A stretch of 64,000 nt of DNA from Stylophora pistillata (taxonomy: Eukaryota): the NCBI RefSeq assembly GCF_002571385.2, contig NW_019217952.1, forward strand, positions 261,612-325,611. The letters run 5' to 3'. Shown here piece after piece: positions 14,939-64,000 of this stretch; positions within the stretch are counted from its first letter, which is position 1; each line of letters begins with the position of its first letter. The position numbers and the translations under genes were made by a program. Under the pieces are notes generated by a model. It saw only the letters and a list, made by a program, of their open reading frames with translations. It was not told the DNA's origin and did not search any database.

Positions 14939-15277
14939 CTGCGAAAGTGTTAAGGATGATGTAGATGTAGATGTAGATGTAGAACGGGTCGGTCCGTGAA
15001 CTTTAAGGGAGATGAATTTACGAGCGATCCTATACGAGTGAACCTTCTATCGAGAATTATCAAGCGAAACCTGCTATATCAAACGAGCTACCTCATATTA
15101 TGTTTACAAGTAAACACCACCGTGTATATAGACGCGATCGAGAATCCAGTAGAATACCAAAAAGCTACTCTGAAACGTCTCAGAAGAAAGGGCAGAAAAC
15201 TGAAGGAATTTATTTATGAGCATATTCGTCCAAGCATACGGAACAACATTCATTACACTCCAGCAGACAAAAATAAA

Positions 15278-15784
15278 GCTGACGTTTCGAGCGTTAGCTC
15301 TTCGCCCTTCGCTCTGACGGGTAGTTACGAAAGCGAAGAGCCATACGAAAACGAAGATCCATTACGAAAACGAAGATCCATTACGAAAACGAAGACCCCC
15401 TACGAAAACGAAGACCCTCTACGAAAACGAAGACCCTCTACGAAAACGAAGACCATTACGAAAGCGAAGACCCCCTACGAAAACGAAGACCCATCACGAA
15501 AACGAAGACACATTACTAAAACAAATTCAAAAGAGATTGATATTACCTTGTGGACAAAGATTACCGGTTTTCGTTTTCGTAGGGAGTCTTCGTTTTCGTA
15601 ATGGATCTTCGTTTTCGTAGGGGGTCTTCATTTTCGTAATGGGTCTTCGTTTTCGTAATAGGTCTTCGTTTTCGTAACTACCCGCTCTGGCGAAGGGCTA
15701 ACGCTCAAAACGTCAGCTTTTTAACTCTTTACGGTGGCCAATTTACAATTTCAACTTAATTGATATAACCAAATGAACTTGTTA

Positions 15785-15826
<42 letters not shown>

Positions 15827-15829
15827 TTT
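15278..15829 (+). mobile_element. Penelope-derived fold-back element with hammerhead-like motif, interrupted by a MITE
   Basis: Inverted arm GCTGACGTTTCGAGCGTTAGCTC; forward arm CGAAGGGCTAACGCTCAAAACGTCAGCTTT...GGTGGCCAATTTAC...TTTCTTTAGAAAC. 13-bp duplication AGACAAAAATAAA at 15265-15277 and 15830-15842. Confidence 0.8.
15319..15683. mobile_element. Fold-back MITE built from about 19-bp subrepeats (TACGAAAACGAAGACCC)
   Basis: TIRs GGGTAGTTACGAAA / TTTCGTAACTACCC. Direct subrepeats on the left, inverted on the right. Target duplication GCTCTGAC / GCTCTGGC. Confidence 0.85.
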
Positions 15830-16778
15830 AGACAAAAATAAACACAAGTAGACTTATTCATGACCGGCAATTACGAAATTGCGTGATGACAGTAACAATG
15901 GCAATATGGCAGTCCCCTAAGGATAACTCCAGATGTGCGATATTGAAAGCCCGAGTTCATGCAGCTATGCGTCTAGTTCACCCTTAATAAGACGAAGATG
16001 TGTTGTAGCTATAGGAACTGTAAAAACGTGCCGGAAAATATTAGATGACCGTTCCTTTACCGGAAATAAGTGTTTATAGAACACCCAGCGTTCACGTTTT
16101 CCTACTTAGTTCTTAGATAGCAACTTTATGACACGTGTCCCGGTGGCTAATAACGTCAATAACCAACTAACAACTGCAAGTTTAGATTCCACCCCGTTCC
16201 CCTGAACCCAAACTGACTTGCACTTGCTCAATTATAGGGGTCTAGTAAATTGGGCCGAAGAGGGTCCACTTGTAGAATTATACGTGAATTCCTTTCCTAA
16301 TGTCACTGATATGCGACAGCGAATTGTCACAGGTAAATCCATTTCATGAAGTGATGTGTTTATTGACTATGAAATTTGTGTTCTTTTTTCAAGTCCATCA
16401 AATTAAAATTCTACGCCGTACTGAACGATTTCGAGGAAGAGTGTGTTCTTCAATGGCGCCCTGTGTTGGAGTTTTTATCATACTGCTTGGTCATTGGCTC
16501 ATATTAACCGGATGTCAATACCTTTTGATAGGGAAATTGTTAATTCCTCTCGGATATGCCGGACAAAAATGAATAGGTCACGATCACAGTTCCATCACCC
16601 AACACGCACTGTACAACACCATACTCCAACCTCATTATTTATCCCTAAGATATGAAGGTGAAGGAAATTTTCAAAATGCAATCATACGAAGCTAAAATCG
16701 GAAGTTTTAAGCGTCATCATACTCCTTGGTGATAAGGTCCCCGAACGGGTCAAAAGTGTACTCAATGATTTAGCTCAC

Positions 16779-16896
16779 TACGTATTGCACCACCAAGTGT
16801 TTGATTGACAACGTGACGTCAAAAAGATGACGTCCACGTACTTCCAAATAAGCGGAGTTTTTCACGTGCGACTTAGGTCTTTTGAAGAGTATAAAA
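16779..16896 (+). promoter_or_regulatory. Putative promoter of ICL copy 1: TATA box plus CRE/E-box/HRE-like cluster
   Basis: TATAAAA 16890-16896, TGACGTCA 16814-16821, CACGTA 16835-16840, CACGTG 16863-16868. About 90 bp upstream of caacaATGg. Confidence 0.65.
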
Positions 16897-16985
16897 CGAG
16901 GAAAAAATCCTCTTCTGTTCAGTATTGCCAACTTCAATTTCAGAACCTTTTTCCAGATTAAATAATCTTCTTCCATTCAGCAACA

Positions 16986-60416: not shown

Positions 60417-62177
60417 CTGTGTAAATAAAAGAGAACTCCTCCGGCCTTAAATGCTATTCAAATTTTAACTTTACAACTTAACCCATTGACACCTGAACTG
60501 CCCGTAACCACCAGTGCGTAAAAACCCTAACTTTCCCTGAACCGCCTGTAAAAAATGGCGATCATATCACAATCTCACCCCACTCTCCCCTAGTGGCTCT
60601 TTGTGTTTTTTTGCTATAGTGACTTGGGAGAATAATTATCCAATCATTTAGCCTCCTTTGTGCAGATTTTGACTGCTGATTAGCGGCGCCACAAGATCAG
60701 GATTTTTAAAATTTTCACATTGAAGCACGTGTGGTAGACAATGGCTCACGAGATTTAATTAGATCCCGGAGTCGGGGCACTTTTCAAAGACTCAGGGATG
60801 AAGGAAGCTTTGATGGCTTCGATGAGCTAGATAAGGATAGGTTAAATTTAAGTAATGATTTGGATTTAGATGGTTTAGAGGCTGAAGATGACGACACAGA
60901 TGCTGAAGATGAAGCTTGCTGCACTCAACAGCTCGACGATATCCAAGTTCCCCAGCTCATGGCCTCTACAGGCAATGCAGTATTAAATAATCCTAATGAA
61001 CTAGACACTTTTTTAGCTTTCATCGGTAAAGATTTATGGGATAAAATGGTAGAGGAAAGTAATCGTCATGCACACCTACAGTTACGTGGTCAATTATTTG
61101 AAAGTTTTTGTGCCATAACGCGGGCAGAAATGAAGGCATTCATCAGAATAATTGCAATTATGGGTATTGTTAAGCTTCCTAATTATGCTTTTTTCTGGTC
61201 AACCAATGAATTTCTAGGAAATCCAGGCATTAAGAAGGTAATGGCTAAGAATAGGTTTGAGGAATTAAGTTGCTATTTACATTTTAACAATTCAAGCAAG
61301 GAGCCCGCTAGGGGTGACAGATTATGATCGCCTTTTCAAAGTTCGACCCGTTTTTGATTACCGGTATGTTCGCAATAAATGTGGGGTGAATTTTCTGCCC
61401 ACTAAGAATATTTCCATAGATGAGGGTATGATTGGGTTCCGGGGAGGTTATCTTTTAGGCAATATATACCAGCTAAGCCCACCAAGTATGGTATTAAAGT
61501 TTGGATGGCTGCCGATTCTAGTAATGGCTACGTACTAAATTTTGATTTTTACTTAGGTAAAGAACCAAACCAGCGGCCAAGAATTTACAGCTTAGGGTAC
61601 TACGTGGTGACTAGTTTGATTAGGCCTTACATGAATAAGAACCACCAGGTTTTTTTGGCAACTTTTTCACCTCAGTTATTAGAACATTTAGCAAGCAATG
61701 ATACTTATGCTTGTGCCACTGCAAGATCTTGGATCTTGCAGTGGCACAAGGACTTGCCTCCCTGTGCCAAAGAAAAGTTGCGTCCTGGGCAGAAATTGGT
61801 TTGCCAAAAGGGTAATGTAGTTTTCACCAAGTGGCATGATAAGAGAGACATTGGCATAATTTCTTCTAACCTTAGTCCCCTAGCCGTAGATTTAGTGGTA
61901 AATAGGTGTAATCAGCAGGTTTCTAAGCCCGTTGTAGTTGATCTTTACAATAAGCATATGGAATACGTAGATCTTGCATATCAGTTGCATAACTATTACT
62001 TGATAGGTCATTCTTCTTACAAGTGGTATAGGTATTTACTTTGGTTTTTATTTGATATTTAAATTTGCAATTCTTTCATTCTATACAACCATTATAGGCA
62101 AGAACATGGGGAGGGTAAAGTTAAAAAGGTTAATTTTAGGATGAATCTTGCTAAGCAGTTGATCGGGGGGGGGTTTC

Positions 62178-62515
62178 TTAGATCACTTTATTTAGATAGA
62201 TCACTTTATTTATACACGGTAAATTCCACTCAGTCGTATACATGCAATATACCGACAAATGTAAAACTTAAAACTACACAATCATTATAAAATACATACA
62301 AAGATTAAAAGCCTAATCTAAATGAACTGAACTAACTTCTTATTAGAATGAAAATAAATGAAAATAAATGAAAATAAATGAAAATAAAAGTACTGCTTTT
62401 CAGGCACGCCATGTCATTAGTTCACTCAAACCTGAAGTTACTTAGCTTTGTCGTAAACTCACCTAATATTTTAGATATTCTAATATCAGTCGGAAGGCTA
62501 TTCCACAATGCAGCA
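62178..62515 (-). mobile_element. LINE 3' end inserted in the piggyBac transposase
   Basis: Minus strand AALWNSLPTDIR...KLSNFRFE*, followed by an AT-rich UTR and AATAAA tail. Confidence 0.65.
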
Positions 62516-62661
62516 ACTACAGTTTCCGTAGGTAATTCAGTTAAGTGCTGTAAGATTGAGAATTTTTCTGGAGAGCTAGGAAATGTAGGATCTCATTTCA
62601 TAGTTAAGATTGAAAGTAGGCAGAAGGTTTGCATTCATTGCAGCAAGATGGTATTAAGAGT

Positions 62662-62815
62662 AAAGGCTGATAGTTTTGAAAGAAACTGTTTGGGGCTGCA
62701 TCGGTGGGAGTAACGAAATAATTTGGATATATCAACAAAGTTGACATGGTAAATTGGCCACCGTAACGATTACAAAAGCTGACATTTCGAGCGTTAGCCC
62801 TTTATCGAAGCTCCA

Positions 62816-62846
<31 letters not shown>

Positions 62847-62903
62847 TGTAATCGTTATGGTGGCCGATTTACCATTTCAACTTTGTTGATATATCCAAAT
62901 TAT
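62662..62903 (-). mobile_element. Penelope-derived fold-back element splitting the piggyBac Cys-rich domain
   Basis: Same family as 59502-59748, opposite orientation. 14-bp duplication ATGGTATT(A/G)AGAGT at 62648-62661 and 62904-62917. Confidence 0.85.
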
Positions 62904-64000
62904 ATGGTATTGAGAGTGTCAGGTCGATCAGTAGAGACCACTCTTCAGTGCTTACAATGCAGCGTAGCTCTTTGTAAGACTTGCTTTCACGATTTCCATA
63001 GTTGAATAGTGCTTGAACCTTCCTTCATGTCCCAAGTCATTTTCCACCGGATTAATGCCCGACAAAAAGAGAAAACAAACAACCACGAGAGGATAAGTAT
63101 AATTAAGTACTTGGTTCTTGTTTTGGCCTTTTTTATCCTCGATTGGCCGTTTGATTGGTTCCGATTTTGCCTTGATCTTTTTATGGCTTTCATGTTTATT
63201 GTCAAGCGTACTTTAAATTTTCGCTAAATTTTCGCGTTGCTGCGAGTTTGGATTTTTTTTTTCTGTTTTGGCTATTCAATTGGTTTGGTCTCCATTGGCA
63301 GATGTTTTACAAAGTTTGGCTGTTGAATTTTAATTCAATAAATCTTGACTGGAAACCCAATCGCTGTTGCCTGATGTTTTGTTTTTCTTTTTCAGTAAGT
63401 GTTAGTGCGCCCCACTGGGTTTTCTTTGCCATTTACAATTTTGTATTTTGCACAGGTGTATTTTTCGCTTCTCCTGCCTTTAACAGCTTTCAGATGTTTT
63501 AACCTGAAGAAAACTGGAATGGTTATCAAAGAGTTATAATAAAAATGATTAAATCTGACCGAACTACACATTCTCGACCTCTTATCTTTTGACAACATCT
63601 TGCTTTTGCAATGAATTAAAAAATCTCATTTTCAAAAATTGTCGTGCGGCAAAGGGATAGTTTGAAAATTTATTTTCTCAGTGAAATTAAAGGGCACTTT
63701 AGTAGCTCTTTTCCTGAATATTTTGGTATATTCCTGACAATAAATTATTTCCCTTTTCGTTGGCCACAACTTCAAAATCTGATCTCCCATTGATCTCTTC
63801 TGCACACATGTTTAATTTAGAGCTCTTGTAACGCAATCACAAGTGGGGAAATCCCTAAGGATGATTAGCATTGTCACACCCGAGGTGTCAGGTGTCAATG
63901 GATTAAACAAGAAGTTTAGATTATCATTAACCATATTTAACCATTAACCATAACTGAAATACTGGCACCTTTTCTTGATACCATCTCTCAATTGATGTAC

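What the first reader, a model, noticed from the sequence alone, without database searches (positions are those of the whole stretch)
15265..62917. Dispersed fold-back Penelope-derived elements carrying minimal hammerhead ribozymes (retrozyme-like)
Seen: at least seven sites (about 15278/15684, 24626, 26661, 43767, 45735, 59560-59625, 62775-62845) match the consensus gct-CTGACGA-A-GRGC-TAAC-GCTC-GAAA-CG-TC-agc. This gives the hammerhead core CUGANGA / helix II / GAAA / UH, a short helix I, and a palindromic ACGU in place of helix III. Known: Penelope-like elements carry minimal type I hammerheads that need dimerisation. Seen: four insertions share one architecture, an inverted partial arm plus a forward arm plus a 12-14 bp target duplication (15265/15830, 24555/26803, 59489/59749, 62648/62904). 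Three have no coding sequence; one retains GIY-YIG fragments. Every individual copy has at least one core or helix II substitution or a truncation. Inference: a roughly 200-250 bp non-autonomous retroelement whose hairpin places the ribozyme motif on both strands and could mask it or generate dsRNA inside host introns.
Basis: partly seen in the sequence, partly recalled or inferred. Interest (0 to 1): 0.7.

Follow-up and report, generated by a model that had tools for sequence, protein, structure and literature searches.

The report
Clipped ends of a Penelope retrotransposon
These fold-back repeats are clipped end-pieces of a very abundant Penelope-type jumping gene whose tiny hammerhead motif is already published; they are likely by-products of each insertion rather than a self-copying ribozyme element, and the most numerous lineage carries a core change predicted to weaken cutting.

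Summary
The sequences are real: ten hammerhead-bearing arms at six insertions, four with 12-14 bp target duplications. Each arm is the pseudo-LTR of an autonomous Neptune-type Penelope-like element (PLE); genomic copies run on into an RT plus GIY-YIG ORF. The identical motif is printed for an Acropora digitifera Neptune element (Cervera 2014 supplement), and the inverted-pLTR-plus-tail layout is published PLE anatomy. In 88 sampled insertions, 51 are head-to-head, junctions vary, arms form a continuous truncation series, and 40 of 45 pair a long with a short 3' end. So fold-backs are likely made anew at each insertion, not copied as a retrozyme. Arms stop at the ribozyme's 5' edge (64 of 114), not at its cut site. 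One detail not found in print: the dominant subfamily has C at invariant core position 4 (3,451 exact copies against 507 canonical), including copies with long open ORFs. No cleavage, circles or dsRNA were shown. An earlier scan note reached a similar truncated-PLE reading on another genome.

The parts
15265..15842 (.). Fold-back insertion e1 (older, canonical-U4 subfamily), 13-bp target duplication at 15265-15277 and 15830-15842
15275..15304 (-). e1 inverted stub: 3' part of the hammerhead only
15320..15682 (.). Nested MITE-like fold-back repeat inserted into the e1 ribozyme core, 10-bp duplication (1 mismatch); not part of the PLE
15683..15829 (+). e1 forward pLTR arm with tail; hammerhead at 15687 with A6 and G12 changed
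24555..26814 (.). Head-to-head insertion e2 in an intron of an isocitrate lyase gene; 12-bp duplication (1 mismatch) at 24555 and 26803
24559..25063 (-). e2 inverted arm: short-ended pLTR (hammerhead at 24657, canonical core, first pair of helix II broken), 3' UTR and decayed GIY-YIG C-terminus
25068..25236 (+). e2 forward arm, first part: last codons of the ORF and 3' UTR
25234..26660 (.). Nested unrelated repeat with long subterminal inverted repeats, lying where the 5' half of the forward hammerhead would be
26661..26793 (+). e2 forward arm, remainder: 3' half of the hammerhead and tail
43767..43854 (+). Single short pLTR arm, older subfamily; canonical core, C11.1 changed, helix I cut off; no target duplication found
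45649..45767 (-). Heavily decayed single pLTR arm with internal deletion
59489..59761 (.). Fold-back insertion e3 (young C4 subfamily) inside a tRNA-like SINE; 13-bp duplication at 59489 and 59749
59501..59583 (-). e3 inverted short arm
59590..59745 (+). e3 forward arm with tail; hammerhead at 59593 with C at position 4 (subfamily consensus) and C11.1 changed; predicted cut would lie at 59620/59621
62648..62917 (.). Fold-back insertion e4 (young subfamily); 14-bp duplication (1 mismatch) at 62648 and 62904
62658..62811 (-). e4 long arm with tail
62810..62903 (+). e4 short arm; decayed hammerhead at 62813

Best explanation
The arms are pseudo-LTR ends of an autonomous Neptune-type Penelope-like retrotransposon, and the fold-backs are likely dead-on-arrival products formed anew at each insertion. 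Shown: the arm is the element's pLTR; it ends at one of two fixed 3' points (about +90 and +150 from core base C3); most short arms begin at the ribozyme's 5' edge; insertions carry about 13-bp duplications of AT-rich targets. Inferred mechanism: the element's protein nicks both target strands about 13 nt apart; each nick primes reverse transcription, one at each of the two start sites in the pLTR RNA; both cDNAs read through an uncut hammerhead and stop near its 5' edge (RNA 5' end or a pause site); their ends are joined head-to-head by microhomology and short templated patches. In a host transcript the antisense arm is predicted to pair with the sense ribozyme and silence it. The hammerhead is a genuine inherited PLE motif, but the dominant young subfamily carries C at core position 4 and is predicted to cut poorly.
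For: Copies 98% identical to a window arm continue upstream into RT, a C-x4-C-x2-C linker and GIY-YIG. One copy (L224) spans inverted arm, 5' pLTR, 5' UTR and ORF start. The same motif is assigned to an A. digitifera Neptune element in PMC4209133 supplement. Sample of 88 insertions: 51 head-to-head, 36 single, 1 complex; 5' starts range from -1026 to +78, with 64 of 114 at -10..+9, and 102 of 114 span the predicted cut. One long plus one short end in 40 of 45 pairs (p 3e-8); duplications of 10 bp or more in 30 of 46 clean fold-backs against 0 of 500 controls. The +2/-7 junction occurs in both subtypes (4 and 6) and both arrangements. An uninterrupted SINE copy holds the e3 target once. In vitro, a lizard PLE extends both strands, starts at two sites bounding the tail and uses uncut RNA (PMC11167929). 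C4 counts: 3,451 exact copies against 507 with U4 and 93 with the other CpG decay product; C in 66 of 72 young arms, T in 5, the same rate as other CpG sites.
Against: The priming model is borrowed from a Poseidon-clade element and not tested here. Snap-back self-priming (PMC3846280) also yields head-to-head products, and the two arms nearly always share a subtype (46 of 52 pairs typed alike, 1 clear mixed pair), which fits one template. One junction does recur (10 of 30 loci; 4 of 34). A 315-bp tandem array of the pLTR exists elsewhere (L009), so non-coding derivatives do arise. No single intact full-length ORF was seen; long copies were broken or cut by assembly gaps. C4 also occurs in 3 of 15 rows outside the young clade. 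BLAST ends are uncertain by a few bases.
Confidence: 0.82

Rival explanations
1. Short arms are copied in trans from non-coding pLTR transcripts (solo copies or tandem arrays), so they form a SINE-like or retrozyme-like non-autonomous family, although the fold-back shape itself is still made at insertion.
For: Strong 5' hotspot at the ribozyme edge. 26 of 30 copies with C at -8 stop exactly there, whereas 28 of 30 with T at -8 continue into the 3' UTR. A 5.4-copy, 315-bp array exists. Trans-mobilisation by pLTRs is published (PMC3846280), and retrozymes as PLE derivatives are proposed (10.64898/2026.07.22.740005).
Against: Run-off from the 5' pLTR of the full-length RNA explains the same short arms without a second element. 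Short arms carry the same subtypes as ORF-bearing copies. Only 1 array was met among the loci read. 10 of the 26 C(-8) cases take that C from the inverted arm.
Confidence: 0.25
2. The fold-back is itself a replicating unit: a 200-250 nt hairpin RNA that is copied whole.
For: 34 short fold-backs of 165-294 bp among 88 insertions, and a recurrent junction.
Against: 26 different junction pairs in 34 copies; both outer ends fall at the element's own two 3' end points; the recurrent junction appears in both subtypes and both arrangements; the sense ribozyme is predicted to be paired with its antisense copy.
Confidence: 0.06
3. Fold-backs form by snap-back: one cDNA folds on a short palindrome at the ribozyme's 5' edge and copies itself, instead of two primed cDNAs meeting.
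For: A 4-bp inverted repeat spans -6..+7 and matches the -6/+4 junction (3 of 34); arms share subtype; self-priming was proposed in PMC3846280.
Against: Single arms stop at the same edge. The arm reaching further 5' can have either the long or the short end (7 and 3 for the recurrent junction). One insertion (L136) has arms of two subtypes.
Confidence: 0.3

Closest known systems
Neptune PLE of Acropora digitifera, BACK01051917 (Cervera and de la Pena 2014, PMC4209133, Table S1 and Fig. S3)
   Same: The paper also reports pairs of motifs 100-700 bp apart on opposite strands in Schistosoma.
   Different: That copy has canonical U4; the dominant subfamily here has C4.
Complex insertions of endonuclease-positive PLEs (Arkhipova 2013 PMC3846280; Craig 2021 PMC8557442)
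   Same: Inverted 5'-truncated pLTR, palindromic junction, one-sided tail, target duplication, solo pLTRs.
   Different: Tail about 60 nt rather than 30-40; duplication mode 13-14 bp rather than 8-10; end and junction statistics are measured here.
Poseidon PLE of Anolis (Frangieh 2024, PMC11167929)
   Same: Two end points bounding a tail, AT-rich targets, no RNA ends seen at the hammerhead cut.
   Different: Different clade; its ORF starts inside the ribozyme, whereas here the start codon lies about 228 nt downstream of C3; its core is canonical.
Metazoan non-LTR retrozymes (Cervera and de la Pena 2020, PMC7229834; Li 2026 preprint)
   Same: Non-coding, type I hammerhead, PLE-related, long target duplications.
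   Different: Retrozymes are head-to-tail tandem repeats with canonical active ribozymes and abundant circles; the window copies are head-to-head or single, minimal and decayed.
U4C viroid hammerhead variant (as cited in Perreault 2011, PMC3088659)
   Same: Same core change; said there to lower activity considerably in vitro yet allow infectivity.
   Different: A variant of a full viroid hammerhead, not the consensus of a multi-thousand-copy retroelement with a minimal ribozyme.

Membership tests
Endonuclease-positive PLE, Neptune clade | Single ORF with RT followed by C-terminal GIY-YIG endonuclease | tested here: met
   L083 ORF: RVT_1 E 1.4e-7 above cutoff, GIY-YIG E 4.6e-4 just below cutoff; homologues carry both. 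N- and C-terminal parts were seen in different copies.
Endonuclease-positive PLE, Neptune clade | CX2-5CxxC linker between RT and endonuclease | tested here: met
   C-x4-C-x2-C in L010 ORF; the motif is shared by Neptune and Nematis.
Endonuclease-positive PLE, Neptune clade | Placement in the Neptune rather than Nematis clade by RT phylogeny | not tested
   No reference RT tree built; the label rests on the identical ribozyme of a published Neptune element.
Endonuclease-positive PLE, Neptune clade | pLTR with hammerhead at both ends, inverted truncated copy, one-sided tail, target duplication | tested here: met
PLE minimal type I hammerhead | CUGANGA and GAAA cores, extra base before helix II, palindromic helix III, UH triplet (older subfamilies) | tested here: met
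   507 exact canonical copies; 1,686 relaxed matches against 31 control.
PLE minimal type I hammerhead | Canonical U4 in the dominant subfamily | tested here: not met
   C in 66 of 72 arms; 3,451 exact C4 copies.
PLE minimal type I hammerhead | Compensatory change in helices I and II | tested here: met
   Between families only, read by eye: with helix II unconstrained, 8 of 100 listed matches read GGUC/GACC and 3 of 100 GGCU/AGCC-like (one with a changed last base) against GGGC/GCUC; helix I reads UCGC/GCGA and AGAA/UUUU in single examples. Within the family changes are mostly CpG decay.
PLE minimal type I hammerhead | Self-cleavage as a dimer | not testable with these tools
   No read starts or ends listed at the cut site, but the threshold is insensitive at this depth.
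Non-LTR retrozyme | Head-to-tail tandem units each with a complete ribozyme | tested here: not met
   Window copies are head-to-head or single; one array elsewhere.
Non-LTR retrozyme | Discrete circular RNA | tested here: inconclusive
   Reads come from both strands and 84-89 in 100 run on into unlike sequence; these libraries are not suited to small circles.
Non-LTR retrozyme | Copied as a unit (shared ends and junction) | tested here: not met

The most novel reading that the evidence does not exclude
The most successful Penelope lineage in this genome spread to thousands of copies after fixing a change in an invariant hammerhead base, while keeping every other base of the motif. Cleavage has become dispensable in vivo, and the hammerhead now serves as a structural landmark that marks the RNA 5' end or stops reverse transcriptase, which is why most cDNAs end at its 5' edge. 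The U4 and C4 subfamilies would be a natural experiment on what PLE hammerheads are for.
Probability: 0.3. Interest if true: 0.62.

Novelty: new variant of a known kind. Interest (0 to 1): 0.3.

Why it matters
The element class, the ribozyme sequence and the fold-back layout are published, so the finding as posed is ordinary. Two by-products are useful. First, why PLEs keep hammerheads is an open question (PMC8557442 suggests they may be parasites of the element; PMC11167929 found cleavage unnecessary for insertion in vitro), and a natural active-looking lineage with C at core position 4 makes it testable. Second, the one-long-one-short rule and the stop at the ribozyme edge give in vivo constraints on how PLEs prime and finish insertion.

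Tried and rejected
Rfam scan of the window: no hammerhead match at these sites, only miRNA-hairpin matches below threshold at e4; uninformative for minimal motifs. Monomer folding of 5 copies never gave the hammerhead fold, as expected for a dimer-dependent motif. The hairpin energy of e3 (-131 kcal/mol, z -20.5) only restates the inverted repeat. The idea that e1 had captured flanking DNA from a source locus was rejected: its middle is a nested MITE. The idea that the 507 canonical copies are just CpG decay of C4 was rejected: 26 of 30 sampled do not show the young subfamily's downstream sequence, by eye. A cap-derived extra G at the 5' hotspot was not seen. A>G and T>C differences in RNA reads are equally common in DNA contigs, so there is no editing evidence. 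A contig joint that skips e4 (267 nt, against 256 expected) probably comes from a paralogous repeat and was not counted as an empty allele. The paralogous isocitrate lyase intron did not align, so it gave no empty site. The breakpoint tally printed and all had faulty offsets and were discarded; the third diagnostic base was misplaced, so typing rests on two bases and is invalid for arms truncated past them. Lunse et al. 2017 (RNA Biol) on PLE hammerhead variants is not held, and the supplement of PMC7229834 with 16 coral ribozyme families could not be read; either may already show C4. Searches that found no C4 PLE ribozyme in print.
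Full report
Observation. A search allowing 8 mismatches found 9 copies of the 30-base motif in the window and BLAST added the truncated copy at 26661. 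They belong to six insertions. Four have target duplications at the stated places: 13 bp exact, 12 bp with 1 mismatch, 13 bp exact and 14 bp with 1 mismatch; among 400 random window pairs none reached 13 exact and 5 reached 12 or more with one mismatch. No window copy has an intact motif. Two insertions are larger than described because other elements jumped into them: a MITE-like repeat in the core of e1 with a 10-bp duplication and a 1.43-kb inverted-repeat element in e2.

What the arm is. A search of the window's own genome (398 Mb) with one arm gave 1,408 candidates, 40 scored. In several of the 30 loci fetched, the arm continues upstream at 98-99% identity into a 3' UTR and a reading frame. 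L010 holds 394 open codons of RT thumb, a C-x4-C-x2-C linker and GIY-YIG; L083 holds 594, with RVT_1 and GIY-YIG matches. L224 spans an inverted arm, a 5' pLTR, a 5' UTR and a start codon about 228 nt after core base C3, matching the N-terminus of a full-length homologue. The arm is therefore the pseudo-LTR of an autonomous endonuclease-positive PLE. I did not see one copy with a whole intact ORF; the long ones were broken or ran into assembly gaps. The host is likely a stony coral (inference from a run label, named homologues and the Acropora match below).

What is already known. The supplement of PMC4209133 (passages seen; main text parts 1-2 of 4 read) prints the same helix I, core, helix II and palindrome for Acropora digitifera and assigns it to a Neptune PLE. 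PMC3846280 and PMC8557442 (passages) describe inverted truncated pLTRs, palindromic junctions, one-sided tails and target duplications as typical PLE anatomy. PMC11167929 (parts 1-2 of 4) shows in vitro that a lizard PLE protein nicks and extends both strands, starts at two sites that bound the tail, and does not need ribozyme cleavage. PMC7229834 (passages) separates canonical tandem retrozymes from minimal PLE motifs in Acropora millepora. The 2026 preprint (parts 1-3 of 5) defines retrozymes as tandem arrays derived from pLTRs. PMC6765202 (passages) notes that PLE transcription starts in the pLTR.

Is the fold-back a replicating element? I took the first 100 of 5,110 exact matches to a 30-mer lying downstream of the ribozyme, fetched them as 89 loci, dropped 4 duplicates and parsed 88 insertions. 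Of these, 51 are head-to-head, 36 single-armed and 1 complex. Among 114 arms not touching a gap, 5' starts run from -1026 to +78 relative to C3: 64 lie at -10..+9, 32 further upstream, 6 at +10..+27 and 12 beyond. Only 3 lie at +25..+28, the predicted cut, and 102 span it. The 3' ends cluster at about +90 and +150. Of 49 head-to-head pairs, 40 combine one long and one short end, 4 are long-long, 1 short-short and 4 other (p 3e-8 on 45). Exact duplications of 10 bp or more flank 30 of 46 clean fold-backs and 10 of 23 clean single arms, against 0 of 500 controls; the mode is 13-14 bp and they are 74% AT. The 34 short fold-backs (165-294 bp) show 26 different junction pairs. The commonest junction also appears in 10 of 30 loci chosen by a 5' pattern, but it occurs in both sequence subtypes (4 and 6 loci) and with either arm carrying the tail, so it likely forms repeatedly. 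An uninterrupted copy of the SINE that hosts e3 has the target once. Against this reading: arms almost always share subtype, and one 315-bp, 5.4-copy tandem array shows that retrozyme-like derivatives can arise.

The ribozyme. A relaxed core pattern with helix II left free gave 1,686 matches against 31 for the reversed control; other families in the genome keep helix II and helix I with different letters, so the motif is a real, structurally conserved hammerhead at the level of families. Exact counts of the 30-mer are 507 with canonical U4, 3,451 with C4 and 93 with the other CpG decay product. In the young subfamily position 4 is C in 66 of 72 arms and T in 5, the rate seen at other CpG sites. 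Most canonical copies belong to older subfamilies. In a tree of 30 tailed arms, 12 of 15 C4 rows fall in one strongly supported clade with e3 and e4, and 3 fall outside it. Of the 12 best ORF-bearing copies, 10 have C4, 1 has U4 and 1 has A; that set is biased toward the query's subfamily. The Acropora copy and the other families have U4, so C4 is likely derived. PMC3088659 (passages) says U4C lowers activity considerably in a viroid yet allows infectivity. I found no report of C4 in a PLE, but two likely sources could not be read.

Expression. Three RNA runs (2-6% of each read) were laid on e3/e4 and on L224. On L224, depth over the pLTR was in the thousands on both strands alike, against 0-20 over the 5' ORF, and 84-89 in 100 laid reads ran on into unlike sequence. 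This is what passive read-through of many genomic copies would give. No pile-up of starts or ends was listed at the cut site, but the threshold (a fifth of local depth) is weak here. The e3 transcript is predicted to fold into one long hairpin that pairs the ribozyme with its antisense copy. Only e2 is shown to be intronic, in one of two isocitrate lyase genes. Production of dsRNA or small RNA was not tested.

Mechanism and verdict. Most likely, the element's protein nicks both target strands about 13 nt apart, each nick primes at one of two sites in the pLTR RNA, both cDNAs pass an uncut hammerhead and stop near its 5' edge, and their ends are joined head-to-head. The anatomy is shown; the priming steps are inferred from it and from PMC11167929. 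Snap-back of a single cDNA and trans-copying of short pLTR transcripts remain open. The finding is a known element with a known ribozyme and known layout; the fixed C4 core in the dominant lineage is the one feature that may be new. An earlier scan note (e1-9815236, unchecked) reached a similar truncated-PLE reading for another genome; I had stated my reading before opening it.

Noticed in passing
window 15320-15682: MITE-like fold-back repeat built of 18-20 bp units, dispersed in the genome (120 matches from 40 scored candidates), with 9-10 bp target duplications; one other copy matches 153 bases at 100%.
   Followed up: partly
window 25234-26660: Dispersed 1.43-kb repeat with about 410-bp subterminal inverted repeats (84% alike) and no PLE similarity; family not identified.
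   Followed up: partly
window 17060-19946 and 24347-28698: Two tandem isocitrate lyase genes; last exons 98.7% identical but first exons 78%, which may reflect partial gene conversion.
   Followed up: partly
window 23341-23727 (-): Fragment of a distant PLE family (24% identity to the N-terminal region) upstream of e2.
   Followed up: no
L009 1432-3120: 5.4-copy, 315-bp tandem array joining pLTR, 5' UTR and 3' UTR end: an internal-deletion derivative that fits the tandem retrozyme definition but carries the C4 core.
   Followed up: partly
L224, 5' UTR between pLTR and start codon: Branch-point-like and acceptor-like sequence suggests a 5' UTR intron as in other PLEs; no splice joint appeared among the listed joints at low depth.
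   Followed up: partly
L232/L233, L256/L257, L249: At least three other minimal hammerhead families with canonical cores and different helices; one pair is tandem 134 bp apart and one pair is head-to-head.
   Followed up: partly
window 59287-59486, 59757-59889 and L002: A tRNA-like SINE is hit by this PLE at nearly the same AT-rich spot in e3 and in L002.
   Followed up: partly
window 45951-47502 and 51099-52420; 60710-62062; 42274-42942: Two tandem caspase genes, a decayed piggyBac-like transposase (DDE_Tnp_1_7) and a calponin-homology exon.
   Followed up: no
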